Assembly: GCA_008632985.1 (NCBI GenBank)
Contig: QPGO01000047.1
Coordinates: 1 to 64,000, forward strand
Source of the DNA: Psammoneis japonica
Taxonomy: Eukaryota
Direction of reading: 5' to 3'
DNA: 64,000 bases
Part shown: positions 2,449-61,600 of the stretch, in pieces
Layout of the letters: every line of letters begins with the position of its first letter
Numbering within the stretch: position 1 is the first letter of the stretch
Translations under genes and position numbers: made by a program
The notes under the pieces: model-generated
Database searches by the model: none
Seen by the model: the letters and a program-made list of their open reading frames with translations, nothing else
What the model was told of the DNA's origin: nothing

Positions 2449-2508
2449 ACACACAACATCACAGGTGTTTTCATGGCTGGAAAGAACCTTCATGTGTGGC
2501 AAACAAGA

Positions 2509-6810: not shown

Positions 6811-6979
6811 CGATGTTTTTGTGCTGTGTCGTTTGCGACAGGGTGTGTGAAGAAACATGAGAGCGGCAGCGCAGCGCGGATCATCGTCGCGACGATGGCA
6901 GAATTGAAATTTCCGGGATTATTTTTGATCAGTTCAACTGTGCAAGAACGGACGGAAAATCTGGAAAATGCTGTGCATG

Positions 6980-41722: not shown

Positions 41723-42075
41723 GTTTCTGGTGATGCAGTGACACTTCTTATGAGTGCAATCAAGCTTGTTTCTGGACAATCAACTGATTTTGGGGGTTGC
41801 GAATGGCTCACGCAAAGATGAATTAGCGTTAGCGTCGTCGGGCGGAGCGCATCGTCGTCGTCGCATGCTTCGTCGCGACAAAAAAATCGTCATCGCGAAT
41901 CTATCGCGCCCATAACCCGGATTTTTCATGCAACGGTTGACGCACGTACGCACAATTGACGACGAAAAAGCATCACCGCCTGATAACGATAACATACAGT
42001 AGAAGTACAAAGATGATGCTCGCACAATTCGCTGTCACAAAAAAAAGACACAGTCAGCTTGAAATTGCAGCAACA

Positions 42076-43236
42076 ATGAAACGATCGTCGACTGCCGCAT
42101 CGAATAAGTCTGAAAAGAGAAAGAGAGTGCGTAAAAGTCTACCTGTAGTAGAGCGAAAAGGTCAAACGAACTCGGAAGCGGAGGCGGTTCGTGCTCTGGG
42201 AGCACTCGGAGACACCGCAACGCAAAACAACGCATCAGCCACACGTCGGAACAATGCTAGTGAAAACAACAACTTACAACCACTAAACCCAACAGAAGCC
42301 CAGAAAGAAGCTGTTGCCAAAGTAAAAATCTCTTACTGGGATAGTCGGGAAGCGAAAGCATTATTCAGGCCGCTCGAGAACGAAACAGTACAAGACGCCA
42401 TGAAGAGACGAGAAAAACTGTTTCAAGGCGTTATTCGAGACAATTCCACCTATCGATCCTTGTTGGATCCTGATGGTGGTGACGATGATCGACTCACACC
42501 AGCACATCAACAAAAGATTGTCACGTCGTGTCTTTTGCTCCGCAAGGCCTATGTTTTGCTTCGAGAAGGAGCGGATGTGAGAGTGGATATGAGTTGGGGT
42601 ACAGCTCGTACTCAAGCGGTGAATGCGGTGCAAGACTTGGGTATTCCGTGCTGCAATGCTAGTATTCTGAAACGACTCCATTGCAGCTTTGTCCGAAACA
42701 ATGACAAGTTTCGTCATCCCGTCAAAAAGAAAGACAACACGCCACAGGACCCTCCGTTCTTCAAGGCTCATCCTCAAGCCAAACAACAGTTTGTTTCGTT
42801 TCTGCAACAGCACGTGACGGGACGAGATGAGGAAAAGGGGCTGTTCATTATGGAGAATATTGATGGACGCAAAATGGCAAAGCACTTTACAGACGAGATT
42901 CTTGACTGTGTTTTGGAGCGGTACAATCAAGAGCAACTACAACTGCAGCAACAGCAGCAGCAGCAGATGCGGTACAATCCACAACAACCAAGCGAAACAG
43001 CAACACAACTCCCCCTTTCGCGAGAAGCCTTTTTGAATTTGTATGGTCTCAAGGGAAGTCCAACATGCATTCAAGAGTCAGTGTATCGATGGTCAAAGTC
43101 TTTTGGATTCAAGATTAAGCGAGACTACAGCAAATGCATCAATGGACATATGAAAAATAGGATGCTTCTGGAACAACAGCAACGCCAGCAACAAGAAGGT
43201 TATGATGAAGAAGAACAAGAAGAGGGCTATGAATAG
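42076..43236 (+). CDS. Hypothetical basic/Gln-rich protein (SYWDSxEAKxLF motif)
   Basis: Intact ~386-aa ORF with NLS-like KRKRVRK. Part of it has a decayed paralog at 51512-51600. Confidence 0.7.
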   Translation: MKRSSTAASNKSEKRKRVRKSLPVVERKGQTNSEAEAVRALGALGDTATQNNASATRRNNASENNNLQPLNPTEAQKEAVAKVKISYWDSREAKALFRPLENETVQDAMKRREKLFQGVIRDNSTYRSLLDPDGGDDDRLTPAHQQKIVTSCLLLRKAYVLLREGADVRVDMSWGTARTQAVNAVQDLGIPCCNASILKRLHCSFVRNNDKFRHPVKKKDNTPQDPPFFKAHPQAKQQFVSFLQQHVTGRDEEKGLFIMENIDGRKMAKHFTDEILDCVLERYNQEQLQLQQQQQQQMRYNPQQPSETATQLPLSREAFLNLYGLKGSPTCIQESVYRWSKSFGFKIKRDYSKCINGHMKNRMLLEQQQRQQQEGYDEEEQEEGYE

Positions 43237-43291
43237 GGGACTCGATTATTTAGGGATGCGTTGCTGCTACAAATTAATGGTGTCTAGCAAT

Positions 43292-46200
43292 CTAATTATT
43301 GCAAAGCGGCACAGCTGCTGCCTGCAAAGCAGTCATCATGCTCGCAACGGCGCTCCGACATTGGCCGACACTGATCCTCCACTTTTTGTTGGATCTCTTC
43401 AACTTTGCCGCATTCAAAGTGGCGCGTGCCTGTACCAGGACCCCGTCATCAAGAACACCAGTCTCCGATGCAGTGTTGATGAACTTTTCAAGCGCACTAA
43501 TGGCACACGTGCTTCCGCTTTTGCCAAGATTTTTTGCAAGGTCGGGATACGTCCGTCGCATTATCTCGATGTTTAACGCCGCCTGCTTCAGCTTGGTTAG
43601 GGATTCGGTGATTCTTCCCTGTTTTCGAATCAATCGCTTTGCAGAATTCACCTGTGATCTCGCTTCTTTGAATTTGCCAAACGAAGCAGAGGCGAACTCG
43701 CCACCAAATCTATGAAGGCAGCTACTCAACGTGCAGGCCACCTTATGAAAATCCAAAGGTAATGATTGGTTGAGCAACGTCTCGACGTAGACGACCGTGC
43801 ACTCATGGATAACCGCGTTGTCAGAAAGCGTGACATTCAAACAAACATTTACTTTGGTTCGGTCTGGTTTGGGAGTTAGCCCTCTGCAGGTAAGAAGCGG
43901 CCTGATCACCTGCGCATCGAGGAAAACGCACTTGCTATTATCGCTTGTCCAATGGTATCTGCCCCCATTTATCAAAAGGGTGTTTTTCAACGCAATAGGT
44001 TGGTTAAGCTTCCCTTCATAATTCCCAGATATGATACCGGCACAAAGGTAACGGTGACAAGAACAAGTACGGGCGTCCCAACTGGACATTGGCTCGTTTT
44101 TAACATCTCGAAAGTAGCTAGGGCCTTCAGAGCTTAGCACTGTAGCGCCGACGACTCCGGCAGGATTGTTTCCGACTGCGGGGTCCAGCAAGCAGTAGCT
44201 ATTTGATATCCCCCCTCCTCCATACCAATCACTTCCGCCAACCAATCCACCAGAATGTCCAGAACATCTTACACTACCGAATGCAAAGCATTTACTGATA
44301 ATGCTAGTTGAGCCGGCGGCGCCGACCAAGCCACCGCAAGAGCTAACCGTTTCATTTCCATTCACAGTGACACCTCTTGCGCTACTCTGATGGATATCAG
44401 AGCCTTTGATCCCCCCAACAAGACCACCCACATGGGATTGGCTGCCTTTGACTGTCCCACCATACACATGGCAACAAGCGACTCTGGTATTGCTTCTTCC
44501 ATAGTTTCGAGTATCCCCAAGCATTCCTCCAACCAAGCCACCAACTTCACTATCGCCGTTGACAGTAGGATTATGTACCGTGACATTATGAACCCAACCG
44601 AAACTATCAAGGAACCCAACCAGTGCCCCTACTTGGTGTTTTCCTACAACATTTGGGTTCCTGAGGACAAGATTTCGCACCTCTCCTGCATGCTGAATTC
44701 GGCTAAATAAGCCTACTCCGTTGGTCAAGAGATCGTTCACTTGTATGGAGTTCAAATCATTGATTGTATGCCCAAGCCCGTCAAACGTTCCAGTCAATAA
44801 AGGAATGGGGAAGAAGTTATCACCTGGGTCAGCTTGAATATCATTCATCAAAACGTAGTGCCTGTCATGCCCAAATTCTGCAACAGCCCCAACATTCTTA
44901 AGGTCTTGGTACGTGAATATTTCGCAGGGATTCGTGTGCCCTCCGCAGCCTTTCGCGAAGCTTACTTTCGTTATTGGTGCTTCGCTAACGTTGTTGGCGA
45001 AGATTTCGACATTTATACAGTGTTGCAAGGGAGCTCGATCACTAAACCTGACGTTCAAGCATACTTTTACAAGAGTAAGGTTGTCTTTCATATCGCTGCA
45101 AGTAAGGTGCGGATGGACGATTCTAGTGTTGTCGAAGGCGCAGTTGCCATTGTCAATAGTCCACTTGACGCGTCCGCCCGCAGTGTTGATAGCGTCATCT
45201 AAAGGGATAGGCAATCCCTCACCACCCCTGTAAGACTCGCCGGCATAAGCTACCTTTTCTCTTGCAATGGCTACAATAGCAATGTCCCTAGTGATTGTTC
45301 CGTCAACAAAACTGGCCTTCAAGCTCGCTTTGACAAAGATAGGGTCGTCCTTGACGCCTCTGCAGGAAAGATTGGGGCGCAGAATGTTGGGGTTGGAGAA
45401 CGAGCAATTGTCGTTGTCGGCAGTCCAAAAGTAAGTAGCCGCGGCGGAGGAGGTCGCCTTGTTCAGCCGGATAGGTGTGCCGGGCTCTCCAATGTAGGGT
45501 CCTTCGGCCCTGACCTCCAGAAGGCACTGAATATGTGCTGGGTGGGAATTTCCTCCAAAGGCCCAGACGTCACCATCCCATCCCGACATTGGTTCATTGT
45601 CAGGACTAAAGAAGTAGCTGGGATCTCCAGAGATGACTTTGGTGCCACTGAAACCGGGACTTCGGTTACCAACGGCAGGAGCGACCGCGCAATATGCGTT
45701 CTTGAGAGGATTCGAGTCGTCATTGTGTTCGATCGATCCAATTAGGCCTCCCGATCGATATGCGGAGACTGTGCCTACCGCGTAACTGCGATTCACGAGG
45801 AAACTTCTCCGCACATAGCCAAAGAGTCCACCGGCAGCAAACTCTAGCCTGCCATTCCTGACTTGCAAAGCACTCGCATCTACTTGGGTGTAGCAGTCCG
45901 ATACCTTTGAATTGTCTTCAGAGTATCCTACTAAACCACCAACACTACCCTTGAGACAGGAGACGGTGCCCGTCGCAAAGCAATTTGTGATACCAGCTTC
46001 ATAGACGTATCCAATCAAGCCACCACACCTACTATCCCGCTCTTCAAAATCGTGTGGCTTCTGCCCGCTTCTCACGTCCACTAGTGTGGCACTGCATTTT
46101 TCAATGTCGGCTTCCCGCAAACTTCCGACAAGCCCACCAGCACTGACAGCAGTTCTAGTGCTCGTGATCGAGCCACCACGGACATGGCAGCATGACAGAG

Positions 46201-46895
46201 TTGCGTGTCTCAACTGCCCGGCAAGTCCACCAGCGGTTTTGCCGTTAGACAGAAAAGGAATTTTCGTGTTGACAATACGAGGGTTATCAACCTGGACATT
46301 CGTTATAGAAATATTCCCTCCTTCGCCAAATCCAATGAGTCCTCCAGCATATTGGTCAAATGCTTTCACAGTTGGATTTTCTACAATGATGTTGTGAATT
46401 TTCGCATTGCCGGTGACATGCCCCGCCACCGCACCAACGTGCCCCAAGCCGATCTGAAGACGATGTTAACCGAACGCCAGAGAGTGAGAAACCTTATCCA
46501 AGCATTTCAGGCAAACAAAAAGGATGACCTACCACCGTAGGGCCCCTAAGAATCAGGTTGCTGATCTGAGCATTGTCTCCAACGGATCCAAACAGACCTA
46601 CGTGATTGAAATATTGGCGATCAATGTTCAAATTGCGAATACCTCTCCCATTCCCGTTAAAGATTCCTGTGAACTGGTTATCGATCTTCCCGATCGGTTC
46701 AAAGCTCTCACCACCAGGCATACGGATGTTGTTGATCAAAATATAGCTTTTCCAAAGTCCGTTGCTCGTGACCTTCTCCAAGTCCTTGTAATTGTGGATT
46801 TCGCAAGGGTCGGTATTCTGCTTCCCGCAGCCAGTCTTGAATTTTGCCATTGCAGGCATCACCATGGAGCTGATTAGCGCGAGGAAGTATCCCAT
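43292..46895 (-). CDS. Large secreted GLUG-motif/PKD-like repeat protein; intron 46454-46532
   Basis: Signal peptide; two modules GCG..T(D/N)PCEI...Y.L.N.I...F.PI...TG.F.G.G..I..L...VGLF; many (V/A)GGL(V/I)G GLUG motifs; three PKD-like GPY.G..G.PI.L...WT.DN..C.F....PxLxC units. GT-AG intron joins PTV|IGLGHVG in frame. Confidence 0.85.
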
Positions 46896-47699
46896 GGCAA
46901 AAAAATTCAAATTGCAGTTGCTTGTCATCTCACTCTATAGTTTTCTTGTCTTGCGTCTGTATCTGATCTGCAGATAAAGAAGAAAGGATTGGAGTTAGAA
47001 CCCGGGTAAGACCGATCTATGGAGATAAGAAATTGTGATTCTAACACCCATTCTCTTTTCTGTTGTGAAACCAAATTGCAGCAGAATAAGTAATCGGTAG
47101 CAACGCTTGTCGCAGCAACGAAAGTGAAACGCGTGAACGTCCAACGCGCCTCTTTCCGTCCAATCGTCTGAACGCGACAATGGCCCAAGCATTGACAAAG
47201 AAGTAAAGGCATGCTCAGTGCCGAAAGCTCAATAATTTAACACGAAAGAAGAGGTAACCATTCGCTTCTGCCGAAATCATGTGTCACAGCTGTCGCTGTC
47301 CCACTCGCCTTCAGGTTCTTTTTTTGTGTGTGTGCGCGGTGTTCATTTTGTGTTGTCTGCCGATGCGATTGATTCTCGTTTGTGTAACAGGGCAGTACTC
47401 GTTCGCTCTCTGATGGTGTTCTTTTTGGGACGCACTTAACAAAAGCTGTCACGGGGCTATTAAAAATGATAAAATCTACAGCGAGTAAACGTCATCGACA
47501 TTCTAAACACTTATTGTGCGTAGATTGTGGTATCGATTCCACTGAAAAGAGAGAGAAAAATCGAACCCGCCTTTTCCCATTGTTCCCTTGCATCGCATCC
47601 AATGTTTTAAATGCTTGTGTCATCATCACGCCATCTTGCCTCCTGCGAACGACCCACATCTGATCCAATGCCTCCACTTCCAAGTTCACCCCCATGCAC

Positions 47700-50600
47700 A
47701 CTGACTGAGTGAGGCACCAATTCAAGAGAGAGACACTCCATCGTGCGCTCTGGCGCATCTGCCACCTCGGCACACACCACACGCTCATCCTCCAGGCAAC
47801 AATGCTGGCATGTCACACCAGTTGTTGCACTGCCAGCAATGGCATTGACTTTGTTGGCAAGAGTGATGTGTCCCATGGAGATCTTGTTGTTGTTTTGAGT
47901 TTGTGTCTGGGGTGTCACACAGCATCTGCAGCCACATCTCCCACACAGCACTGCAGCGCTGGAGCCAAGAAGAGCCCAAAGAGGCTTGCTCACCAAGATT
48001 GAGCCCTGCCATCTTGTTGGCAGCACCAGAGCCATGCCACAGTTGCAGTGATCACTTTGAATGAGACAGGAGACATGCAACAGAGAGCCCTCTTCTTGGG
48101 GCAAGCTCAGCCCAAACCTGGTCAAACTGCAAGATTCAGCCAGTTTTGCAAAGAGCAAAGAAGCCCCCAACCAGCGTGCATGCACTGGCAGTGTGCAAGG
48201 CTGAGATTTGGCTCAAGTGCAGCCTCTTCCTGAAGGGAGAGGCTTGCAAGGACATTGCTGCACATGAGTTTTTTGCTCTTCCCTGGCATTCCAGCCACCA
48301 TGCCAGTGCCACCTGTTGAGTTTGCCAGGCTTCCAACTGCACCCATCCAGCAAAACAGTGCTTCCACAGCCTGGCCAGTTAGAGGGCCTGAAACTCTCAA
48401 ATGACTTTGTCAATGCCTTGTCCCACAGGAGCTTCAACAGCTTTTTCTGCCAGTGGATCCACTGCCTCCAACTCCTGTCAACAGCAAACTCCTGGTGGCA
48501 CTGGCCCCAAAATGAGCACAAACCCTTTCCCCAGACTCAGGTGCTCCAACACATCAGCTCCCAACCCCTGTGCACTGGACTGTCATGGTTGCACTCACAG
48601 CAATGTAAAAGATCCATCACCTGCTCTGTCAAGTCCGTGGCTGAGCTCCTCTGGTGCTGCAGCAACAGTGGCAAAACAGTGCCATCAGACCACCATGCCA
48701 CCCCAAGTGAGCAATTCCTCCTCAACAGGCCATGCCCTGGCAACAACTGTGCCCCCTGCCACCACCTGCATTGGCCATTGACCTGCTTTTTTGAAGACAT
48801 CAATGACCTTGCAGTGTGCCTCTGAGCTCATCTTCACCAGCTGCTCTGACCTGGCACTGTGGTGCTGCAAGGCAGCAATGATCCATCAGTGCTTGTGCCA
48901 CAGCAGGATGCCATGTGGTCAGTTGGTCAGACATTTGCTGTGCAATGGGGTCCAAGGATCAGGCCCTCCTTGCACCCCAATCAACATGGACTTCCATGAT
49001 GCCCAGCAAATCCATCACTTCAAGAAACAGGATTTGCCCCAACTGCTGCATCAACCCCCACAGCTGTCATCCTGTGGATCATGCATGCAGCCATGCTTGG
49101 CTTGTGCACCAGGAGCCCAAAAGCCACCACCAATGTGTGTGTTGGCCTGGCTTCATTTGACTGTGTTGGCAAATTTTGAGACAACTCTTTTGAGTGCCAT
49201 TGCGCCAATGTGCCATTTGCCATCAGCAAGCCTGTGAACATCAGTTTGTGGTGTGGAGTCAGAACACGCCCCACATTTCACCAGGTGCATTGCAAAAAAA
49301 GCATCAAAATGAGATGACATTTGAGTGGTGCCAGTGCTGGATTGAAGTTTCAATTTGAGTCACATTTAACCACTGACTGGAAAACCCAATGTCACAAGGA
49401 CTCCAGCAATGCACAATCACATGCAGGGTTTGCGTGAGATGTCACAATCACTGTGTTGCCATTTTCTTGACAAAATCTGCAGGAAACAAACACTCAAGGA
49501 TGCTCCAAACAACTGCTGTGTGCAGACTGCAGTGCACACCTGTTGCACTCTTGTTGCAAGATGTTGAAGCATGCCTGCATGCCAGTTTGGAGTTGCTTGA
49601 TGGCTGGGCCTCAAGGCTGCCCATTGTTTCATTGCATCTCATCCAATGATGCAAAAATGCCTGTGCCGCCATCTCACCCCCCATGCTCCTCCTGTGAGTG
49701 AGCCCACTGTGTGCATGTGCTCAGGTCCAATGCCTCTGCCTTCAAGTTCACCCACCAGCAGTGCACCAACTGAGGCACCCAGCAATGCTCTTCATTGTCA
49801 ACAGCCCATTTTTGTTTCCTCCTCCTGCCTTTGTGCTTGTGGGCAAGCCCACCTTTTTGCCAGTGCATGCTCCAATGAGCACTTTTTCAAATGGACCCAC
49901 CACATCTCATTTGGGCAAGCCAATGTGAGTGCACATCCTCTCAAATTGTCTGTCAAAGCTTCTGACAAAGTTTCCTCCAAAGGAGGGTTTGGCAATCTTC
50001 CAGGTGTGCCTCTGTGCCAGCTCTGTTGCTGACCAGAAATCTCACCACAAACCTTGGGCATGCTGTTGATGCAAGCAGATGTGCTGCTGCCTCATGCTGC
50101 TCCTGACACTGATTCAGCAGTGCAGGCGCAACCAACATGTCAACATTTCTCTTGTGGCTGTGCACTTGAACCACTCTGCTGGTGCCTGCACTTTCATTGA
50201 GAGATGTTGTGGACAGTGCTTCAACAGCAGCAATCTGACTTTTTGTGCACAAGCTGACAAGATGTGACAATTTCATGCAGGAACTCAAGTTTTTCCTCAG
50301 GTGGCATGCTCAACTCCAGTGGGCAACATTGGCTTTGTCAGCAAGAGTGGCATTTTCTCCCCTGGAGATCTTGCTGTCGTGTCTGAGAAAAACTGTTGTT
50401 CTTGGCCCAGCTGTGTGTGTGCTGCTGCACATCCGCAGTGCATTTGCCAGACCTTGCATCTTGAAGACTGCGGTGTTTTCAAAAAAGACAAGAGATTGGA
50501 GCACAGAGAGCACTCTTGGTGGGCTCAGCCCAAGCTGGGTTGAGCCACAAACACTCCAGTCAACAATGATGGTTGCTGTGTTTGGGGCCAAGCTTGAGAC

Positions 50601-50700
50601 AAAACTTCAAAGCTGGCTGACTTTGGCACTCTGCAAATGTGAAATTGAAGCCATCACTGCAAAACTTGCACCAGTTGTCATGTGATGCAAAATCTGCACA
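47700..50700 (-). mobile_element. Non-LTR retrotransposon (LINE) 3' relic: post-RT, RNase H-like and C-terminal regions
   Basis: APNT..IV..VCGSTQLG (cf. IVYGSxxLGG), LNQC, and RGWELMC...FWGQCHQEF...WIHWQKKLLKLLWD (cf. IGW..L..G..S..W...Q..Y...W..KLI.LLW of diatom LINEs). Heavily decayed. Confidence 0.5.
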
Positions 50701-51429
50701 ACTTGATGTTTCATGTGATGAAGCTCGTCATGACACATCAGGCACAGCAACAACATCTGCTAAAAATGCCATTTGGTGGCAGCTCAAAAACTCCTGCAAC
50801 AGCAAGGTGTGCACCAAGGAAATCAAAAAATCTGTTGTGATGCCACAGGTGAAATGTCACATGTCAATTCTTCACCAACACACAAACACCATTAGCCACA
50901 TTCTGACACCTGCTGTGTCAAATCCAGCAAAAACAAAAACAAAAAGAGCTTCAAGTGCAAAGTGCAAATTTCTGGCAGAGAAGAGATTTGTGGTGTGGGT
51001 GGTTGGTCTGACAACAGTGCAGCTGATGAAGTGAGACATCTGGGGACATCTGCAGTTTGTCATCGATGTCCAACATGTGCGCCGAAGACATGCTGCTGTT
51101 CCAAAACTTTCTTGCAGAGTGCAGAGTGATGGCTTCACTCTGAAAACTCTCTGGCTTTGCTGACACAAATGAGTGCAAAAAAATGAGATTTTTTGCTTTT
51201 CAAAGGGACCCACAGATTGCAGAATTGGGGAGAGGGGGGGGGGGGGGGGGCAGCAAGTCATCATCATGCAGTTGGGAGTGAGCCAGGTTCTTTTCCCCCT
51301 CTGAGCCAGCACCCTCTTGAGTTTGCATGCACCTGCCTGCATTGAAAGCCAACTTCCTGTTTGTGGTTGCTTTGTGGCTGCTCTCTGTTGTTTTGCTTGC
51401 TGCAGCATGTTTGTTGCCCCAGACATGTG

Positions 51430-51610
51430 CCAATGTTTCTCAGTGCTGCAGTCAAGTTGAGTCAATTCATTGGAGAGCCAACATGAATTCAGAGTGCAGC
51501 AACAGCTGCAGTCCACAACAACCAAGCAAAACAGCAACACAACTTCCCTCTTTGCAAGAAGCATTTTTTGAACATGCACGGTCTCAAGGAAGTCCAACAT
51601 CTGCTCAGGG
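51430..51610 (+). pseudogene. Decayed paralogous fragment of the 42076-43236 gene
   Basis: tccacaacaaccaagcaaaacagcaacacaacttccctctttgcaagaagc...ggtctcaagg-aagtccaacat aligns to 42978-43066. Confidence 0.9.
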
Positions 51611-51799
51611 ACATTCCCAAATCTGCCATCTTGAGACTGCTGCATTTGTGAGACTGGCCAGACTGGACTGGCCCTGGTGATGCAGTGCTTGAGCAATTTT
51701 GTAAAAAACCAATTGTGATTGTTTCTGCAAGATCTGCACAAGTGGTTGCAGTTGTTTCACAAGAACCTGACATGACATCAAGATGACACCCCATGCAGT

Positions 51800-54670
51800 G
51801 CCGGCCATTGGGATTCCATCTCAGGATTCCCTTTCAAATGCGTTCACTCGTGGCATTTGCTGCAACCACACACAAGAATGACCACAACAACAACAGCACC
51901 ATTGTTGTCAGCCAACTCTACATTGCATCACAACAACAAGTCCAAGTTGCTGAGAGCCCCTGTTGCCAATGCCACAGCCACACTTGGGATGGCTGCAATG
52001 GGGGCTTCCAATCAGCTCACCTCTGACACTTTTGCTCAGCAGTCAAGATTGGTGAGAGACATGCATGATGACTTGGGCGACAAAGATGACAACACAAAGA
52101 AAGCAATGAAGGTGCAAGTTTCAATTAAAACCTTGTCACGCCTGCATTTGAATTTCTGCCTCTGACCCTGAGTTTCAACCAAACTTTTTGCAGCAGACAT
52201 GAGAGCCAGTTCTGTGCAATGTGTGGCCACAAGCACGCCACATTGGGAGACACCAGGTGCTTGGTTGATGAGCAAAAAGCCTTCATTTGCCTGTTTTGTT
52301 GAGCCTTTTGCCCACAAAAGAAATGGGGCAGGGCAAAGAAGGGAGAGACCAGTCAGGCCAATCTTTGATTCTGAGCTCTTGTTTGAAATGGTGACAGCCA
52401 GCAATCCCTTGACTGCAGCGGACATTCCAAATGAGACTCAATTGCTTGACCACACAGAACCTGGTGTTGGCAAACCCAACAAGCTCAGCCAGTGGCATGT
52501 GGTCAACCAGGCTTGTGCATCCCTTCGATGACTGTTTGTTTTTCAGCTTGAAATGCATGGCAGAGATCCTGCTTTGTGTCACTCCGTCATGAAAATTCCA
52601 GCCACATCAAATGTCTCAAGTGTCTTGTGAAGTCCCCAAAACCACAAGAGAAATGGAGACAGGTGAGTTTTGGCCAAAATGTGTGGCACATTTCTGTTTA
52701 AAACAGCCAAGCTGTGCTGAGTTGTCCACCTCAAACATGGTCAGGTTTCTGGCAATGTGTTGCCCCACCTGGCCCATGAGCATTTCCCAGAGTTGGAGGA
52801 GGCTTGCTGGGGACATTCTTCTGGGACATTGCTCAATGGAACAGCTGCTTTGTGCAACCATTTCTTCATGCTGTGCACAAAACAAGCCATTTCCCACTGG
52901 GAGTCTCTCCTCAAGGCTCTGACCTGAGCGATCTTTGCAGTTTTGGTTGTCGGGCAAGGAAAGAGGAACAGGCCCAGCTGTTGCTCATCATGAAGATGTT
53001 TGCTGGCAAAACCAATGGTGAAAGCATGTGGTTTGGCCATGTCATGCAACACAGAGATGTGAGAATAAACTCCATTGGTGGATTGGGTCTTTGTCTGCTC
53101 GGTGCAACCATCCAACCACTTCAATCAAACAAACTGTTGCTGCAATCATTTTGAATGCAAGATGCTTTGAGATCAGCAAAGAATGGGAGAAGATTGACCT
53201 AAAAAGGAAGGAAACATGGTGGAACATCAAGCTCCTTGTGGACATGCAGAAGGCTTGCACATCTTCTGGAGACAGTGCCAAGTCACCTGCTGACATGCAG
53301 CTCATGTCTCCCTTGTCTTGTGTTGCTTGGTTTGATCATTTGAAGGAACGGCTTGACCTGTTCATCAACTGCAGTTTGCACTTTGGACATGTTGGAGGCA
53401 CAGTCAAGTTAGAATCAGAGGAGTTGGAGTCTTCTTGTCTCATCAAAGCTTTTGAAAATTGAAACCCAAGTGTGTTTGATGCCCTTGAAGGTGAGTCGCA
53501 GCACTTGTGGTGTGGCCTGTTTTTCTTTTAATTAAACTCACATTTTGTTTCAATTGAACAATGTGAGGCAATGAGGGTTGCAGCTGGCTTTGCAAAGGAG
53601 CCTGGAACCTGATGAATTGCAGAAGGAGATCTTTCCTTGGCTTGAAGGCATGGCAGAAGGAGTGTCTTGCAGGGAGCACCCCACATCACATGCTGCCTTT
53701 GTGGAGCTCTTGAGACCATTGCGTGTTGTCATCCTCCAAGATGTGGCTGCTTTGATGCTGCTCGGCTGCACCCACACCCTGCTCAAGCTTGCTGTTTTCA
53801 TGTCAGCTGGATTTTTGTCATTCAAGGAAGAAATGAAGGTTTGCTTGGAAAAGCCACCCCCTTGCCCTGATGCTGGACAAATCTGTGGGGTGTCAGAGCA
53901 GACTCAAAACTTGCACCAGGACAACTGATGCAGCCACCAGCAGCTGTTGTCTGCAGTTGATGGGTCCTTTGAATGCAACAGAAACACAATGAACAATTTT
54001 GCCTTTGCCACTGGAAACTCACACAGCCAGAAATGAGTTCAACAACTTGACCCTGGAGCAGTCTCCACTGACTGGGCAGCAAACACACCAGCAATTGGTG
54101 AGTGCTGTGCATCATCTTGCTGTTTCAATCAAATGTCATTTTAACCAAACATTTGCTGACCAAATTGTGCATTCAATTGAAACCATTTTCAGCCACAGGC
54201 ATGATGCCAGCAACAGGCATGCAGTCTCCCAGTCCCAGCTTGAGTGGCTTTTGACCCCCCAAGTGGAAAGACACAGATCTTGCCAAGATGCACAACTGCT
54301 TCAAGGGAAATGCTCCTCCTTTCACTGCCCGCAATGAAATGAGGCATTTGGAGGACAGCAGGAAACCATGGCATTCAGCATGGGAAGACAAAGACAAAAA
54401 TGCTCTCCATCATTGGAAGCAGCTGATGAAAATTGTGGACAAAGTGCTGGTTGAAAACTCTGCACACCTCCAAGTTCTGGTCATTGCCAAGTTGAACTCA
54501 TTTTGCATTGCAGATTGCAACAAGGTGTTGACAACCACATTGAAGAAGTTCCCTGAACAACATTGGCACTTTGCGGGCCATTTCCAGCTGGCAGCAGTGC
54601 AAATCAAGGAAAAATGGCCAACAACCAAGGGGAAGTGGCCAACATTTGGCTGCAACAAAAACACAAGTTA
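51800..54670 (+). mobile_element. Crypton-type tyrosine-recombinase DNA transposon relic (NDC10_II-like)
   Basis: ESLLKA.LSDL, GKTNG..WFGHVMQHRDV...GGLGLCLL..RF, WWNIKLL, LHFGH (HxxR with CGT>CAT), ELQKEIFPWL, and FVELL..LRVVILQDVA. Confidence 0.7.
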
Positions 54671-55229
54671 AAGGGTTTCATCGAAGCTCACTCTTGGTGC
54701 AATTCTTGGTGCATGTTCTTGGAGCATTGCACACTTTCCAACTTGGTGCCTCTTTTTACATTTCAACAAAACCCATTTGTGACATTTTAAATGAAGCCAA
54801 CTTAAATTTTGGTTGAAACATGATCACAACACATTGCACATGTTTGAACTCGATGCTGCTCTCCTTCAGAATGTCCGCCACTTTGCATTGGATTTGGCCA
54901 TCTGGCTTGCCTTTGCTGTCCCAACTGCAGTCATTGAGAACATTGTGCTTTGTGTGAGCAAACCATGTGGTGCAGTTTTTGTTGAAGCCAATGGCTGTGG
55001 CACTCTTCTTTGCAACAAATGAGCCACACGTCTTGTCAAATTTGGTGCGGTCCTCCTCAGGGACTTGGAAACACAGGATGGGGGGGGGGCACTTCTGATG
55101 TGCTGGAATCAAATGTGACCCTCACATTCTGCAGAAGGTTGGGCAGTGCATTGCTGCTCTTCTTCACCTTGCAACCTTCCTCCCAGGTGACCATGGGCCA
55201 CTCAATGCTGTCCAGTTTTTGAAACCCAC

Positions 55230-55620
55230 AAGTGGATTTTGGGGGGGTTGCTGTTGAAGGTCTTGGCTGCATCGCTGCCTCTGGCCTTGACAGTGCCCTT
55301 TTTGGCCTTCTCACCAGCACTGCCACCCTTGGTGCTGCTGTCCTTGCTGCTGCTGTCTTTGTCAGTGGCCTTCCTGGGCTTGGCGGCACTGCCACCCTTG
55401 GCGCTGCTTTCCTTGGCAACACTTTCCTTGGCAACACCCTTCTTGGTCTTGGGGCTGCCCTTGCCACCCTTTTTGGCCTTTGCTGCACTTTTCCTGCCAC
55501 CCTTGGCAACACTGTCGGCCTTGGCACCACTGCCCTTGGCACTGTCAGTGTCCTTGGCAGTGCCCTTCTTAGCCTTGTGGTGCGCAGCAGTGTGGGTGTG
55601 TTCTTCCTTGGCAATGTGGC
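55230..55620 (-). other. Lys/Ala/Gly/Ser-rich low-complexity coding-like repeat (AKGG/KAKKG), relic or gene
   Basis: KAKKGTAKDTDSAKGSGAKADSVAKGGRKSAAKAKKGGKG... is open for ~130 codons and built of gccaagg repeats. Confidence 0.55.
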
Positions 55621-57859
55621 AGCATTGCCAGGGACAGCCTTCCTCTGTGCACCACACAGAGAGAGAAAAACGTTTTTTCAATGACCTTGGCAACAAGTGA
55701 TTGTCACTTGTTTGTTGAGAGCCAAAGATTGCACAAACTGGTTGGATCTTTGCTCTCACCATTGACCAAATCAACATGTGTCAACAAATGTCACAACTTT
55801 TTGGGATCGCCAAAACAGGCACATGTTCAGTCACATGGGAAGCTCTGGGTTTGTGAAAAAAAAAGAAGAGGAAAGGGAGGAGGGGAGAGAGAGTAGAGAG
55901 GCCTGCATTCAATGTGCACGCATGATGGCCACATGTCTCACGCACCTCAGATCTCAGACAAAACTGCGACAAAAAAAAAACAACCATGGTGGCAGCAACA
56001 GCCACCACTTGATTTTGTTGCCAAACCTTTTTCTGCACAAAAAATGAATGTGTCACATTCTACATCTTTCTCTGATGAGTGCATGCAACAAAAGAGATGC
56101 AAGAGAAAATCCAAAAACAGACAAAAACTCCCTTCTGGGATTTTGCTGCTGTTGGTGCTCTATCCTCACAACTTGCGCATTTCAATTTTTGTTCACATTG
56201 GACAGATTGGAGAGCACTCTTGGAAAACTCTGTGTGCACATGTGGAAGACAAGGTTGCCCTCATCTCCAAATGTTGTGGGCCAGCACATGGCTGGTGTGG
56301 GAGTCAACTGTGTGGGAGGAGCAGCTTCTGGGTGGCACAGGAGTCATCAGGGCATTGGAGTGGCCAGACGGCATGGCAGTTGGTTTGGCTGGAGCAGCCA
56401 GTTTGCACAGGGAGTGGGTGGTGTTGGAGCAGCTGTGCAGCATGGCAGTTGGCAGTGTTGGAGTGGCCAGGTGGTGTGGCAGTTGGTGGCATTGGAGCAG
56501 CCAGGCAGATGGCATTGTGGTCAGCATGCAAGTCTTCAGAGTGGCCTTTGGGGGTTGTTGGAATTGGTCAGCATGGCAGCACCACCAGGCAGCACTGTCA
56601 ACACATGACAGGCAATTCACAATCTGCCACTTTTGGAAAAGTCCATGCACAAAAGGCAGACAAGGTTGACCTCATCTCTAAAAATCATGGGCAACTGCTG
56701 AAGTTTCTGACTGCAGCAGCAGCACCTTGGCATTTTTTCTGCAATGATGTTCATGTGGCATGAGATGCCGGAGGCTCCCGGCCACACATGTCTGGTCTTT
56801 AAATGGCTGCCTTTGATGGAGTCATTGGCTTGTCAAGGTCATTGGCATTGGAGCTGTGAGGGAGAGGTGGCATGAGAGTCAGTGGTGCTGGAGCAGCCAG
56901 CTGCTGGTGCTGGGAGAGAAAAAAGAAAGATGTGTGTGTGTGTGTGTGTGTGTTTGGTGCCACAGCTTGGGTCCATGTCACCAACTGGGAAATCCAGGGT
57001 TGGCGCCAATGTCATTCTCTGCATGAGTGCATTTCCACCATCACAAGTCCACCACTGTGATGCATTTCCAGCATTGTGGCCATTTGGTGCTTCCCAGTGT
57101 GGCACCCTGTCCTCAACCAGCATGGTGCAGTGCTCCGTGCTGTTGGGCTGTGCCATGCAGCTGTGATGTGGACCTTCTTTGTGGCTCAAACTACACCAGA
57201 AACAGCACTGCACCTGACAAGTGGAAGCTTTTCTTTGTCTGCTTGCTCAGTTTGGTGGAGGATCAAGCACTTGGCTGTGCCACCTGACAGCTGCCAATTC
57301 CAACACAGCTGCATTTTGAGCTGACAATTGATGGCTCAGCACTCTCCTGCAACTCCAAATGGCTCAGACCTTTCTGGTGGGTTTGAAAGAGAGGTGCAGA
57401 AGGTTCACACACAAGCTTTGTGTGTGTGTGTGTGTGCTCAGATCTTTTGTGTCTCCCCACTCACAAGAATGACTGTTCTCTCTGCACCAGTGCTGTTGTG
57501 AGTGGCGGCAGTTTGCTGTGTGGTGTGAGCTTTGATTTTCTGTCTTTAACCTTTTTGCAACATGCCAAGTGAACAGGTGCTGTGTTCTGGAACATCTGAC
57601 AATGCTCGCCAAGTGGCCCTGCCACTCACCACTCAATGTCCACCAGATCACTCCAGCATGCATTCATGCATGTAAAGTCATGCAAACCATGCTGGTTTTG
57701 GTTGTTTTGGCATGCTTTTGCAAATCTTGGAAGCACTTCCTGAAACATCTTAGCTTTGCTGCTGGCAACCTGACAGGAATGCCATCCCTTCCACCTTGCT
57801 CTGCAAGGAACTCCAAAGCTTCAGACATGGCACTCTCTGCCATTGTGACAGGTGGCTCA

Positions 57860-59204
57860 GAAGGACACTCAGCACCGTCGCTTTTTGATGCCATTGCTGA
57901 AGAAGCAATGCCACGATTGGACAGTTTCAACCAGCAAGAAACAGCAAACACTGCACGGGCCTGTGCTGCTGTTGGACACCCAGCGCTGTCACTTTTTGAT
58001 GCCATTGCTGAAGAAGCAATGCCGCGATTGGACATTTTCAACCAGCAAGAAATGGCAAACACAGCATGGGCCCATGCTGCTGCTGGACACTCAGCACCAT
58101 TGCTTTTTGATGCTCTGTTGCCAAAGAAGCAATGCCGCAATTGGACAGTTTCCACCCGCAAGTGACAGCAAACACGGCATGGGCCTGTGCCACTGTTGGA
58201 CACTCAGCACCGTCACTTTTTGATGCTGTTGCTGAAGAAACAATGCCACGATTGGACAGTTTCCACCCACAAGCAACAGCAAACACTGCGTGGGCCTGTG
58301 CCACTGTTGGACACTCAGCACCGTTGCTTTTTGATGCCATTGCTGAAGAAGCAATGCCAAAATTGGGCACTTTTAACCCCCAAAGCCCAGCAAGCATGGT
58401 GCGGGCCTTTGCCGCAGTTGGACAGTCAATGCCGTTGCTCTTTGATGCTGTTGCTGAAGAAGCAATGTCAAGATTGGGCAATTTTGCCCCCCAAAGCCCA
58501 GCCAGCACAGCATGGGCCCACTGTGCACTGCTGCTGGGCATTCAGCACCGTCGCTTTTTCATGCCGCAGCTGAAGCAGCGGCATCGAAATTGGACAAGTT
58601 CACCCCACAAGGCCTTGCAAACTTGATGTGGGCTTGCGCGGTTTGTGACCAATTCAGTGAAATTCTAATTGGAGATGCACCACGCATTGCGCACGCTTCC
58701 CATTCCACTGCCGCCTCCTTTTCTGATGAAGAATTGTGTCAACTCCACCAAATTCATCTTTGGCATCTTGAGAAAGGGAAGTCATTGTTGCTGCTTGATT
58801 GTGACTTGCAACAGAGGTGTCAAGAGGCTTTTGTTGGAAAAACAAGGCAATCCATCCAAGCTGCAAAAGGATGTTGTCAGGACACTTTTGGACCTTGGAC
58901 TTGACCCCCAAAGGAAGAATTCCAGATGGATGTGGGTTGCAGCTTGGGTGCAGTGGTCAGGCATTGCAATCGAGAAGTTGCCATTGAAGTGGATGGGCCA
59001 AGCCACTTTCTTTCTGATCAATCACTGACTGGTTCTATGATTCTAAAACATCGCCAGCTTGCAAGATTGGAAAATTACAGCGTGGTGTCAGTGCCTTGTT
59101 GGGAGTGGAATGCTGTGGCAGAAAAGGACCCAAATTTAAAGTCAGTTCAAGAATGGCACAAAAAGCACTTGTTGGAAATCCTTGGTCAAGCGATTGCAAG
59201 TTAG
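57860..59204 (+). pseudogene. Helical-repeat (37-aa HPR/OPR-like) + RAP-domain RNA-binding protein pseudogene
   Basis: About seven 111-nt repeats (GHSAPSLFDAIAEEAMPRLDSF.PQ..ANTAWA.A), then RAP VAIEVDGPSHF...TGSMILKHRQL..VVSVPCWEW. Frameshifted. Confidence 0.9.
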
Positions 59205-60030
59205 GTTGAAAAAAAAAAAGAGGAAGGGTTGTCTGTCAGCTTCTCTCTGCTGTGCACTGATGCAAAAGAAACGTTCGCACCACAGTTTTTGTTTGTGGCA
59301 CAAGCAGCCAAGCTTGTCAACCAGTCCACGCATCGAGTTTGGCTCTGCACTCTTGTGCGTTTGGCCATGACGACTCTCATTGCAGCCGCATTGCATTCGT
59401 AGCATGCAGACTTGAGGCCTGGTTTGTTGGGCTCTGTGTGCTTGGCTGCACAGACAATTGATTTTGAACACATGTGTTGCAATGCGGCTTGAACCTTTTG
59501 AGAGGATGACATTTGCAACAGACATCTGGCTTCAGAAAAATTGCGTTGGCCACTCAAAGTGCCAACATGTGGATTGCACTGGTTCTGATTCTCCTCTCTG
59601 CTTGTGGCAGACATGACCTTCATGACATTGGCACACAAAGCAACCTCTGCCTGCAGTCTTCATCCAATGCGAGCAAAGCAGGTCAAATGAAATTGTCATC
59701 CATTGAACAATGGGGTGGCTTGTCAACGCAAGTTTTCACCTTGCCATTCAAGTGTCCAACGCAGTTTCACAAAATGCTGTCACATTGTCAAAAGGTCACA
59801 GCGGCAACAGCATTCTCCACCTGGACGCAATGTTCAAAGCTGTTCCCAAAGCAGGGCACCTGAGCACCTCAATTCCAACAGATGGTTGTGACTCGCAGAG
59901 ATGTTTCTGCACCAAGCTGGACCAGTCAAACACTTTGCTTTCCCTGCCAACTCGATCCAGCCAAGTGACAATCACACCCATGATGAAAGAGCAAAATTTT
60001 TCAAAGAATGAGAACAAGGTGGAACAGCCC

Positions 60031-60340
60031 TCAATCATGTGAAGCACGGGACACGGACTCCAGCAAATGCTTTTTGCACCATTTCCTGCCAGACTTCATG
60101 GACGAATCTTTTCCCAACACTTCATCCCATTCCCAATGTGGACCTGACAAAAGAGTGTAGACTTCTAGTTTCAAAAGCTGGCAACATTTCAATTTGGTGG
60201 ACCCAGTTGGTGATCGATCATGGATTGATCTCAAGACCATTGCAAATGCATCAATGGACATGGAGTGGGACCCTGTTGCAACAAATTCAATGGGAGGAGA
60301 GCCAAGGGCAGAGAAGAGGCAGCAATGTCCCCTGGTCATT
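60031..60340 (-). pseudogene. Second RAP-domain relic, inverted relative to the first
   Basis: TGSTKLKCCQLLKLEVYTLLSGPHWEWD...WCKKHLLE, paralogous to ...PCWEWN...WHKKHLLE at 58990-59200. Confidence 0.75.
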
Positions 60341-60689
60341 TGGATTCTCCCGTTTGCAAATGTTCATCATGAGCATTGTCCAATTGATGGGAAGAAATGG
60401 CACAAAGGCTGTGAGAAAAGGAGAGTTTGAAGGGAAGACAAGTTCTCAGGGGTGGTGTTGATGACCAGTTGGGAGGAAATGTTTGCCACACATGGGACAA
60501 TCATTTCGCATGGCAAAGGGGGGCACCATTGTTCATGTTGCAAAAACAAGTGAGATGAAGATGAGTGGGGCAAGCCAAGTGGTAAAAACAACATGTGGCA
60601 GGTGACAAGATTGCATTGAACAAGTCAACTTGCATGTCACCATGCAAGATTGCACCTTGGTTTAATGCACAACATCAGTTGTCTGCACA

Positions 60690-61600
60690 CCGGCATGTGG
60701 TGCTTGCACAAAACACTTGACAACACAAGACAAATCTGACCAGATGTGGTGGCTCCTGCTCTGTGGCACTTGTCATGGGGAAGAAGCACACAGCTTGCCC
60801 TGTGCTGACAACTGGCAGAAACCACCAGTGACATCTTGTGTGATGTGAGATTTCCACAAGAAATGGAGATGTGCAACATGACAGAAGCACATGGGGTTCA
60901 AATTTGCAACCCTCATGATGTGGGTCAAATGCAGCCAGCACATCAACACACCCACACTCAGCAGAATGAGTGCAAGTCATGTGAACTTGTGTGGTGCACA
61001 CTTTTGGGTCTCATGTGTCCTGCTGGTGCTGCAGTCTTGTGTGTCACAAGATGTTGCTCTGGCATCTGCCAGCTGTCCCAGCTTGCTGCTAAAGTTTGAA
61101 GAATGTCAGACAAGTCCTTTGCACACTCCTTTCTTCATTGGGAGAAACAAGAACCCCAAGACAGCTGGCTTGCATGACAAAAACAAAGTCATTGCTCCAG
61201 AAGCATTGCTTCAGGAGCATTGCTGCAGAAGCAGGATGGCTGCTGGCATCATCATCCCAGAGAGACACAAACTGAGGTTCCGTTGCCAATGTGACAACAG
61301 CTGGCACAGTGTGCAAGCTGCAGTGTGCTCCACATGCTCCAAACGCAAAGCGCATCAGAAGACAAAAAGACAAAACCAGAAACATGGGAAGTTGCCAGAA
61401 AAATCAGCTGAAGTTGTGCCATGGGAAATCCTGTTTGCAGATGCTGCAATGAGAGGTTGCACTCACTGTCAAGCAAAAAGGGAAAAACTGCTGCATTTGC
61501 AGGCAGTTGTGGTGATTGACCCCACAACAGGATGGCTTGTTGTTGCCAAAGAATGTCTGGTGGCTCCATGGCCCTTGTCACGGAGAAGCATGTGGTGCAC
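60690..61600 (+). mobile_element. Ty3/gypsy LTR retrotransposon relic (integrase zinc finger and core start)
   Basis: KVIAPEAL.Q, W..V...V..CS..K.HQKTK..KHGKLPEKSAEVVPWEILF.D, and LQAVVVIDPTTGW (cf. KYGKLP.K.AE..PW..LCVD...LTMIDPATGW). Confidence 0.75.

What the first reader, a model, noticed from the sequence alone, without database searches (positions are those of the whole stretch)
42978..51600. Internal before/after control: core segment 42978-43066 versus its mutated copy at 51512-51600
Seen: the intact ...aagCGaaac...tttCGCGagaagc...ttgTAtggtctcaagg... reads ...aagCAaaac...tttGCAagaagc...atgCAcggtctcaagg... in the relic. All three CpG and the single TpA in the aligned ~90 bp are changed to TG/CA, while most other positions match. 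This directly shows the direction of both mutation classes within one window. The relic lies just upstream of the Crypton remnant, hinting that the core gene is TE-associated or was captured.
Basis: seen in the sequence. Interest (0 to 1): 0.8.

Follow-up and report, generated by a model that had tools for sequence, protein, structure and literature searches.

The report
Gene fragment stranded in CpG/TpA-purged diatom DNA
A roughly 100-base piece of an active diatom gene also sits in a neighbouring silent block where almost every CG and TA step has been rewritten to TG or CA; the CG loss is an ordinary kind of decay, but I found no published account of the TA loss.

Summary
42957-43066 matches 51496-51600 (81% over 111 bp, E 2e-21, 99.6 bits; best of 100 dinucleotide shuffles 30.1 bits). 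In the 89-bp core, 4 of 4 CG/TA steps are lost against 15 of 81 other steps (P about 0.002). Two sequences cannot give a direction, and only one TpA is involved.

The pair sits in a larger pattern. The window is diatom DNA. A normal gene-rich core (about 9.4-47.7 kb) is flanked by sharply bounded blocks with CpG o/e about 0.1, TpA o/e about 0.03 and TG/CA about 2x. Total pyrimidine-purine steps stay at 24-25%. Independent read contigs reproduce the block, so it is not an assembly artefact.

Outgroups polarise the CpG class. In a Crypton recombinase relic (52739-53961), 6 of 10 Arg columns read CAT, CAA or TGC, and other genomic copies keep CG at 14 sites where the window has TG/CA. TpA loss is supported less directly: 0 Tyr in 379 relic codons, the dinucleotide budget and 3 direct sites.

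The TE-capture idea is not supported. Best reading: methyl-CpG decay plus a second, unidentified TpA-specific A:T-to-G:C process. Ten literature searches found no description of this.

The parts
42957..43066 (+). Core ('before') copy of the shared segment. It lies inside the expressed orphan ORF and encodes residues about 315-351.
   Evidence: blastn E 2e-21; alignment; contigs of the RNA-like run X2 cover 42189-43248.
51496..51600 (+). Relic ('after') copy of the segment, in the purged block. Same frame over 30 codons. All 4 CG/TA steps of the core copy read TG/CA here.
   Evidence: An X1 contig of 771 bp at depth 60.6 spans it and adds a G behind 51587.
42013..43236 (+). Orphan ORF (407 aa from the first ATG, 386 aa from 42076) with normal CpG/TpA content. 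It has a basic N-terminus and Q-rich tracts.
   Evidence: ORF list. No Pfam family even at E 10. No homologue among proteins of 212-676 or 677-2000 aa. AlphaFold2 mean pLDDT 43.7.
1..9350 (.). Left CpG/TpA-purged block. Over 1-9000: CG 127 observed / 546 expected, TA 19/579, TG 1011/576, CA 1035/549.
   Evidence: The edge lies at about 9.3-9.4 kb.
47700..64000 (.). Right CpG/TpA-purged block. Over 48000-64000: CG 123/962, TA 49/1039, TG 1912/994, CA 1874/1006, GC 1294/962, AT 836/1039.
   Evidence: The edge lies at about 47.6-47.8 kb. X1 contigs reproduce it.
52739..53961 (+). Relic of a Crypton-type tyrosine recombinase gene, broken over several frames with TGA stops. It is multi-copy in the genome (X1 depth about 280-300 against 60).
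   Evidence: Pfam NDC10_II E 8.6e-8 at 53575-53925. 57 homologues. tblastn up to E 6e-39. Codon table. Depth.
57863..58579 (+). Tandem array of a 111-bp (37-aa) helical repeat of FAST-kinase type. It is the upstream part of a RAP-domain gene relic and retains some CpG (o/e about 0.37).
   Evidence: TRF; Pfam FAST_1; aligned columns mixing CG, TG and CA.
58905..59201 (+). RAP domain relic (a host-type, organelle RNA-binding protein gene) inside the purged block.
   Evidence: Pfam RAP E 8.1e-13; translation.
5250..7000 (-). Sub-block that keeps CpG (4-18 per 250 bp) but has almost no TpA (0-2 per 250 bp). It holds frame-shifted, hydrophobic ORFs. It shows the two losses can be uncoupled.

Best explanation
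The two segments are true paralogous copies of about 100 bp of an expressed, lineage-specific diatom gene. One copy sits in the gene. The other is a stranded fragment 8.5 kb away, inside a sharply bounded block of TE and pseudogene relics where I saw no transcript cover.

Across that block, transitions have converted the two self-complementary pyrimidine-purine steps, CG and TA, into TG/CA. G+C content and the total number of pyrimidine-purine steps are unchanged.

Shown:
- The match is real.
- The block-wide purge is real.
- It is present in independent reads.
- CG was the ancestral state for the CpG class.

Inferred:
- The CpG class is deamination of 5-methylcytosine in methylated heterochromatin. 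TE methylation by DNMT5a is documented in another diatom.
- The TpA class is a second, separate, TpA-specific A:T-to-G:C transition process. Its enzyme is unknown. Candidates are adenine deamination at TpA, or a mutagenic modification of T or A at TpA.
- This process acts on the chromatin domain rather than on repeats as such.

The pair agrees with both classes but, taken alone, proves the direction of neither.
For: Match: E 2e-21, 99.6 bits against at most 30.1 bits in 100 shuffles. 4 of 4 CG/TA steps lost against 15 of 81 others.

Block composition: CpG o/e about 0.1, TpA about 0.03, TG/CA 1.7-2.3, with edges within about 200 bp.

Budget in 48-64 kb: a deficit of 839 CG + 990 TA = 1829, against an excess of 918 TG + 868 CA = 1786.

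Total pyrimidine-purine steps: 24.4% and 24.8% in the blocks, 24.0% in the core, 22.4-25.0% in 8 intact Crypton loci. The loss therefore went by transitions.

GC steps are up and AT steps down in the blocks. This is what TA-to-CA/TG produces and the opposite of CpG decay alone.

Not an artefact: X1 contigs at about 60x cover 40-60 kb. One 7691-bp contig spans the edge (43565-51250), and all 4 of its differences lie in the core part.

Polarity of CpG:
- 6 of 10 Arg columns of Crypton homologues read CAT x3, CAA x2 and TGC x1 in the relic.
- At 53767 the homologues have Arg, another genomic copy reads CGC and the window reads TGC.
- 14 of 35 listed copy differences are window TG/CA against other-copy CG, and none is the reverse.

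Polarity of TpA:
- 0 Tyr in 379 relic codons, against 2.5% Tyr in 57 homologues.
- 2 of 35 copy differences are window TG/CA against other-copy TA.
- 1 of 5 Tyr columns reads TGT.
- 1 site in the pair.

Not a property of the element: 0 of 8 Crypton loci from metagenomes show the purge (CpG 0.66-0.85, TpA 0.53-0.85).

Domain, not repeats: single-copy-depth DNA at 47.7-50.7 kb is purged. A 1.2-kb tandem array inside a core gene (38.4-39.6 kb) has TpA o/e 1.1-1.2.

Diatom TE methylation by DNMT5a: passages of PMC9998398.
Against: - Only one TpA lies in the pair.
- Of 5 columns where homologues tend to have Tyr, the relic has TTT x2, CTC, TGG and TGT. Only one is the predicted single transition.
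- The relic keeps a CpG where the core has TpG. Part of the divergence therefore lies on the gene's side, or the two descend from an unseen ancestor.
- 7 of 11 substitutions are outside the context.
- Methylation of the block was not measured.
- No enzyme is identified, because the genome is not held.
- The 5.25-7.0 kb sub-block keeps CpG but not TpA. A single coupled cause is therefore unlikely, and the CpG story is not uniform.
- The ancestral composition of most block DNA is unknown.
Confidence: 0.6

Rival explanations
1. The two segments are members of a small gene or motif family that diverged from an unseen ancestor. The gene copy is then not the 'before' state, and the differences are split between both lineages. 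The pair illustrates the block's composition but is not a polarised control.
For: Core TG against relic CG at 43044/51579. X2 contigs match only 43102-43143 of the ORF and run on into unlike sequence at both ends, so other transcripts share a short piece of this ORF. Homology is cut sharply at both ends.
Against: No other copy of the segment exists in the window. The ORF has no homologue in two protein searches. All 4 CG/TA steps differ in the direction expected from the relic's surroundings.
Confidence: 0.25
2. One coupled process: deaminated 5mC gives T:G mismatches, and error-prone patch repair around them (as in somatic hypermutation by polymerase eta, which mutates A in WA motifs; recalled) removes TpA.
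For: Both classes are confined to the same blocks with the same edges. Both are transitions ending in TG/CA.
Against: AA, the other WA motif, is not depleted (o/e 1.24 in the block against 1.16 in the core, from counts). The 5.25-7.0 kb sub-block lost TpA while keeping CpG.
Confidence: 0.1
3. Fungal-type repeat-induced point mutation (RIP), driven by the RID-related DNMT4 that many diatoms carry.
For: Diatom DNMT4 groups with fungal RID and its function is unknown (PMC9998398, passages). The block holds a multi-copy element.
Against: RIP makes TpA and lowers G+C (RIPCAL abstract seen in the listing, plus recall). Here TpA is removed and G+C is 45-54%, as in the core. Half of the changes are A:T to G:C. 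Single-copy-depth DNA is purged, and a tandem array in the core is not.
Confidence: 0.03
4. Sequencing or assembly artefact: modified bases in heterochromatin were miscalled by a long-read basecaller as TG/CA.
For: The window has long-read-type homopolymer errors (extra A behind 48208, G behind 51587, A behind 54656 in X1). Two core sites read TG in the window and CG in X1 (43609, 43771).
Against: X1 contigs, assembled separately from reads at about 60x, agree with the window throughout the block part of contig 43565-51250 (0 differences there) and in 5 further contigs. Relic genes show amino-acid-level decay, frame breaks and stops.
Confidence: 0.02

Closest known systems
Methyl-CpG deamination decay of silenced transposons (vertebrates, plants; TE methylation by DNMT5a in the diatom Phaeodactylum, PMC9998398)
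   Same: CpG deficit matched by TG/CA excess, confined to DNA full of TE relics where I saw no transcript cover. Outgroups show CG as the ancestral state.
   Different: The depletion is stronger (o/e about 0.1). It comes with an even stronger loss of TpA, which cytosine deamination cannot produce. Methylation was not measured here.
Repeat-induced point mutation (RIP) of Neurospora and other fungi
   Same: Wholesale, context-specific transition mutation that ruins TE genes and leaves sharply bounded compositional blocks beside normal genes.
   Different: RIP turns CpA into TpA and makes DNA AT-rich. Here TpA is destroyed, G+C is unchanged and half of the changes go A:T to G:C. There is no sign that duplication is the trigger.
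CpG / TCG hypermutation of repeats in basidiomycetes (recalled: Horns et al. 2012; not read here)
   Same: C-to-T at CpG in repeats outside the ascomycete RIP context.
   Different: No TpA class is reported there, as far as I recall.
Somatic hypermutation (AID plus polymerase eta) and ADAR hyper-editing (recalled)
   Same: Combination of C-to-T with A-to-G. The A-to-G class prefers a 5' T.
   Different: Those act on immunoglobulin genes or on RNA. AA is also hit by polymerase eta but is not depleted here. The whole chromatin domain is affected, non-transcribed DNA included.
CryptonS transposons of stramenopiles (Kojima and Jurka 2011, PMC3212892)
   Same: The relic at 52739-53961 is homologous to tyrosine recombinases of this kind. 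CryptonS was reported from one diatom.
   Different: This copy is dead: conserved Arg columns are replaced, it has no Tyr, it carries TGA stops and its frame is broken. Its ends were not defined.

Membership tests
Fungal-type RIP | C-to-T mainly at CpA, so that TpA rises and CpA/TpG fall | tested here: not met
   TpA o/e 0.00-0.08 and TG/CA 1.6-2.3 per kb in the blocks.
Fungal-type RIP | AT-enrichment of the mutated DNA | tested here: not met
   Block G+C is 45-54% against 44-56% in the core.
Fungal-type RIP | Triggered by sequence duplication | tested here: inconclusive
   Single-copy-depth DNA (47.7-50.7 kb, depth about 60) is purged. A 1.2-kb tandem array at 75-81% identity in a core gene is not. 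Ancient repeats cannot be excluded.
Fungal-type RIP | Dependence on a RID/DNMT4 enzyme, acting before meiosis | not testable with these tools
   No genome is held for the window.
Methyl-CpG deamination decay | CpG deficit balanced by TpG/CpA excess | tested here: met
   CG 123 observed / 962 expected, TG 1912/994, CA 1874/1006 in 48-64 kb.
Methyl-CpG deamination decay | CG is the ancestral state at the TG/CA sites | tested here: met
   6 of 10 Arg columns read CAT, CAA or TGC. 14 of 35 listed copy differences are window TG/CA against other-copy CG, 0 the reverse. Array columns mix CG, TG and CA.
Methyl-CpG deamination decay | The DNA is cytosine-methylated | not testable with these tools
   No methylation data were available. 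Only an analogy to Phaeodactylum (PMC9998398).
Crypton (tyrosine recombinase) transposon | Encodes a Crypton-type tyrosine recombinase | tested here: met
   Pfam NDC10_II E 8.6e-8, above its cut-off. 57 homologues at E 0.001 or better. tblastn covers residues 17-359 of a 618-aa homologue.
Crypton (tyrosine recombinase) transposon | Intact catalytic residues and open frame (an active element) | tested here: not met
   Conserved Arg columns read His or Gln (53038, 53047, 53388). There are 3 in-frame stops and 0 Tyr in 379 codons.
Crypton (tyrosine recombinase) transposon | Short terminal direct repeats (TATGG in most CryptonS, PMC3212892) | not tested
   The element's ends were not defined. Any TpA in such termini would have been erased.
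Polymerase-eta-type WA mutagenesis | Both TA and AA motifs lose A | tested here: not met
   AA 1299 observed / 1047 expected in the block, against 2926/2531 in the core.

The most novel reading that the evidence does not exclude
This diatom has a chromatin-domain-wide mutator, or a mutagenic DNA modification, that specifically turns TpA into TpG/CpA. Possible forms are deamination of adenine at TpA, or a mispairing modified T or A at TpA. Together with methyl-CpG decay it erases both palindromic pyrimidine-purine steps from silenced DNA. The outcome would be a GC-neutral counterpart of RIP that removes every Tyr codon and every TAA/TAG, as well as most CGN Arg codons, from transposon genes.
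Probability: 0.45. Interest if true: 0.9.

Novelty: new variant of a known kind. Interest (0 to 1): 0.7.

Why it matters
Context-specific mutation of silenced DNA is known as C-to-T only: 5mCpG decay, RIP and APOBEC editing. A second class that removes about 97% of TpA by A:T-to-G:C transitions, confined to the same sharply bounded domains, would point to one of two things. One is a DNA-level adenine (or thymine) modifying activity. The other is a repair bias not described in eukaryotic heterochromatin.

It would also give a sequence-only marker of long-term silent chromatin in diatoms, and a dating tool for insertions. It would explain why TE relics in such genomes escape profile searches, since they lose Tyr and CGN Arg codons.

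The small gene/relic pair is the only within-window pair where both classes can be seen side by side. It needs genome-wide paralogues to carry weight.

Tried and rejected
- **Whole genome:** not held, so genomic paralogues and enzyme genes could not be searched.
- **Phage collection megablast of the ORF:** no match, and not a sensible target.
- **ORF identity:**
  - No Pfam family at E 0.001 or at E 10.
  - No homologue in near or longer length classes. Shorter proteins were not searched.
  - The protein atlas gave only unnamed fungal clusters at 0.88-0.90, and transposase-type HTH/DDE_3 clusters at 0.75-0.79, below the level the tool calls a lead.
  - PDB sequence search gave nothing meaningful.
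  - The AlphaFold2 single-sequence model was too poor to search with (mean pLDDT 43.7).
  - No terminal inverted repeats around the ORF.
- **Second possible relic:** 43122-43149 against 60234-60261, with a 20-nt exact core and E 0.006. I judged it inconclusive, because that kind of TG/CA word is common in the block.
- **RAP relic against PDB:** only a spurious hemocyanin hit.
- **Rfam and tRNA scans of the window:** nothing.
- **Sequencing runs:** no RNA holder is listed. Run X2, which behaves like cDNA, has no cover over 48.0-57.3 kb and faint cover at 57.3-59.3 kb. By the tool's own caution this blank is not used as evidence of silence.
- **Metagenome scan:** a 14-protein alignment had no conserved stretch to search with. 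A 6-protein alignment worked.
- **Pfam re-scan of relic pieces:** stopped by in-frame stops and not repeated.
- **Earlier findings of the scan:** nothing on this genome or sequence. The word search returned only phage cases of the opposite bias.
- **Literature:** ten full-text searches found no paper describing joint CpG and TpA loss to TG/CA in diatoms or elsewhere. Subscription journals and supplements were not covered.
- **Organism:** not pursued beyond 'diatom'.


Full report
**1. The observation**

The quoted letters are in the window at the stated places. A global alignment of 42978-43066 with 51512-51600 gives 11 substitutions (10 transitions, 1 transversion) and two single-base indels.

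The core copy has three CpG and one TpA. All four are TG or CA in the other copy. That is 4 of 4 CG/TA steps lost, against 15 of 81 other dinucleotide steps (Fisher P = 0.0019). If 11 changes are placed at random, all four steps are hit with P = 0.0018.

blastn of the whole normal core (9.5-47.5 kb) against both flanks finds this pair, extended to 42957-43066 / 51496-51600: 81% over 111 bp, E 2e-21, 99.6 bits. It is the only hit below E 0.001, and the next best is 38 bits. In 100 dinucleotide-preserving shuffles of the flanks the best score was 30.1 bits. The frame is shared for 30 codons.

Four details were missed:
- Seven of the eleven substitutions lie outside CG/TA.
- The relic has a CpG at 51579 where the gene has TpG.
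- One indel is an error of the assembly. Read contigs have an extra G behind 51587, which restores the gene's spelling.
- Identity drops to random right outside the roughly 110 bp, also in purine/pyrimidine code. The relic is a fragment, not a decayed full-length gene copy.

**2. What surrounds it**

The window is eukaryotic, with few introns. Its DDB1-type protein is closest to diatom proteins. Named hits are Seminavis, Cylindrotheca, Mayamaea, Nitzschia and Phaeodactylum at 49-52% identity, and the best unnamed hits reach 58-59%.

Per-kilobase dinucleotide ratios split the window in three:

| Region | CpG o/e | TpA o/e | TG and CA o/e |
|---|---|---|---|
| About 9.4-47.7 kb (core) | about 1 | about 0.5 | about 1.2 |
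| 1-9.3 kb and 47.8-64 kb (blocks) | about 0.1 | about 0.03 | 1.6-2.3 |

The edges are sharp, within about 200 bp.

In 48-64 kb the deficit is 839 CG plus 990 TA (1829). The excess is 918 TG plus 868 CA (1786). The sum of the four pyrimidine-purine steps is 24.4% and 24.8% in the blocks, 24.0% in the core, and 22.4-25.0% in eight intact Crypton loci from metagenomes. The lost CG and TA therefore reappear as TG/CA, which means they changed by transitions.

GC steps are raised and AT steps lowered in the blocks. TA-to-CA/TG creates GC and destroys AT, whereas CpG decay does the opposite. CpG decay alone therefore cannot explain the blocks.

**3. It is not an artefact**

Contigs of a DNA run of the same sample (X1, depth about 60) cover all of 40-60 kb. 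One contig of 7691 bp crosses the edge (43565-51250). All four of its differences from the window lie in the core part. X1 differs from the window by single-base homopolymer indels, so the two are different data types.

A second run (X2) behaves as cDNA. Its contigs skip four short stretches with CT..AC ends, which are GT..AG introns on the minus strand. They cover the ORF at 42189-43248.

**4. What the blocks contain**

Of 148 stop-to-stop frames of 90 aa or more in the blocks, the matches I judged meaningful fall at two loci. The few other rows were weak, below the Pfam cut-offs.

The first is a Crypton-type tyrosine recombinase (NDC10_II, E 8.6e-8). With 57 homologues it can be traced over 52739-53961 in several frames.

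The second is a gene relic with a 111-bp (37-aa) helical repeat array followed by a RAP domain, at 57863-59201.

The Crypton part is multi-copy in the genome (X1 depth about 280-300 over 52.0-54.0 kb). Other parts of the block are at single-copy depth.

**5. Polarising the changes**

The Crypton homologues have ordinary composition (Tyr 2.5%, Arg 6.1%). Eight related loci from metagenomes have ordinary dinucleotide ratios: CpG 0.66-0.85 and TpA 0.53-0.85, so 0 of 8 are purged. They can therefore serve as outgroups.

*Arg columns.* There are 10 relic codons aligned to columns where at least 40% of at least 5 homologues have Arg:
- 6 are single-transition products of CGN: CAT x3, CAA x2, TGC x1.
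- 3 are still Arg: AGG x2, CGT x1.
- 1 is AAG.

At 53767 the homologues have Arg, another genomic copy reads CGC and the window reads TGC.

*Other genomic copies.* There are 35 listed differences between the window and other genomic copies in the block (58 more were not shown by the tool). Of these, 14 are window TG/CA against other-copy CG, 2 are window TG/CA against other-copy TA, and none is the reverse.

*Repeat array.* In the 111-bp array, ten aligned columns mix CG with TG and/or CA.

The direction CG to TG/CA is thus well supported.

For TpA the support is weaker:
- The relic has 0 Tyr in 379 codons, where about 9-10 would be expected.
- Of five Tyr-leaning columns only one reads TGT. 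The others read TTT x2, CTC and TGG.
- Direct sites number three in all: one in the pair and two from other copies.

The strongest arguments for TA to TG/CA remain the budget and the GC/AT shift of section 2.

**6. Is the gene TE-associated?**

I found no support for this.
- The relic lies 1.14 kb upstream of the first Crypton codon I can detect.
- A contig at single-copy depth (60.6) spans it. The depth table rises to about 280-300 only from 52.0 kb, so I infer the multi-copy part begins beyond the relic.
- The ORF (42013-43236) has no Pfam family, no homologue in two length classes, no terminal repeats, and no match in the Crypton proteins or loci.
- Its structure model was unusable.
- The atlas leads to transposase-type HTH clusters score only 0.75-0.79.

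One hint of a family remains. cDNA-like contigs match only 43102-43143 and continue into unlike sequence.

The simplest origin of the relic is a fragment of an old local duplication, or repair-templated filler, from a gene 8.5 kb away. This is inference.

**7. Mechanism**

*Shown:* a domain-wide, transition-only conversion of CG and TA to TG/CA, with CG ancestral.

*Inferred for CpG:* deamination of 5-methylcytosine in methylated silent chromatin. TE methylation by DNMT5a is documented in Phaeodactylum (PMC9998398, passages read).

*Inferred for TpA:* a separate process.
- Cytosine deamination cannot give A:T to G:C.
- The 5.25-7.0 kb sub-block keeps CpG (4-18 per 250 bp) but has 0-2 TpA per 250 bp.
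- If the blocks are at equilibrium, TA to TG/CA is at least about 77 times faster per site than the reverse (49 TA against 3786 TG+CA).
- Residual TpA is mostly TAA (45 of 70).

*Candidates for the TpA process, none testable here:*
- Adenine deamination at TpA.
- A mispairing modification of T or A at TpA.
- A repair bias.

A polymerase-eta-type WA process is unlikely, because AA is not depleted. RIP in the fungal sense is contradicted on context and on G+C.

*Trigger.* It looks like chromatin domain rather than repetition. Single-copy-depth DNA is purged, while a 1.2-kb tandem array inside a core gene has TpA o/e 1.1-1.2.

**8. Novelty and verdict**

Ten full-text searches found no description of a joint CG and TA purge. 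The library lacks most subscription journals, and I saw no supplements, so a genome paper for this species could still mention it.

The CpG half belongs to a known kind. The TpA half I found nowhere in print.

The pair itself is a small but genuine illustration. It is consistent with both classes. It is statistically biased to the context (P about 0.002). Taken alone it does not prove direction, and it gives no evidence that the gene is TE-derived.

Noticed in passing
window 5250-7000 (minus strand): This sub-block of the left purged block keeps CpG near normal but has almost no TpA. It holds hydrophobic, membrane-protein-like ORFs broken by a frameshift near 6520-6570, with 0-1 Tyr per ORF and no Pfam family.
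   Followed up: partly
window 51234-51250: A run of 17 G. X1 contigs end and start here (contig ends at 51250, next starts at 51227), so its true length is uncertain.
   Followed up: no
window 48208, 51587, 54656: X1 read contigs carry one extra base (A, G, A) in homopolymers. These are residual long-read assembly errors in the window, and the one at 51587 falls inside the relic.
   Followed up: yes
window 43609 and 43771: Inside the core gene 43292-45589 the window reads TG where the X1 contig reads CG. This is either allelic CpG polymorphism or a basecalling error at a modified CpG.
   Followed up: no
window 43102-43143: cDNA-like X2 contigs match only this 42-bp piece of the orphan ORF and continue into unlike sequence on both sides. 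Other transcripts therefore share this short motif.
   Followed up: no
window 43130-43149 and 60242-60261: A 20-nt exact match between the orphan ORF and the purged block (28 bp at 89%, E 0.006). It may be a second relic, with TAC (Tyr) reading CAC, or it may be chance in TG/CA-rich DNA.
   Followed up: partly
window 38366-39615: Tandem repeats (75-81% identity) inside the 886-aa ORF 36968-39628. Locally TpA o/e is 1.1-1.2, the highest in the window.
   Followed up: partly
window 47800-64000 and 1-9300: The few TpA that remain in the blocks are mostly followed by A (TAA in 45 of 70). Either that context resists the process or these TpA are newly made.
   Followed up: no
window 40468-40544, 40717-40855, 46453-46533: X2 contigs skip these stretches with CT..AC ends. 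They are introns of minus-strand genes, so run X2 is cDNA-like although recorded as 'DNA?'.
   Followed up: partly
window 57343-59343: Faint X2 cover and X2 contigs with loose ends at 58299 and 58348. An expressed paralogue of the repeat/RAP gene, one that still has CpG and TpA, probably exists elsewhere in the genome.
   Followed up: no
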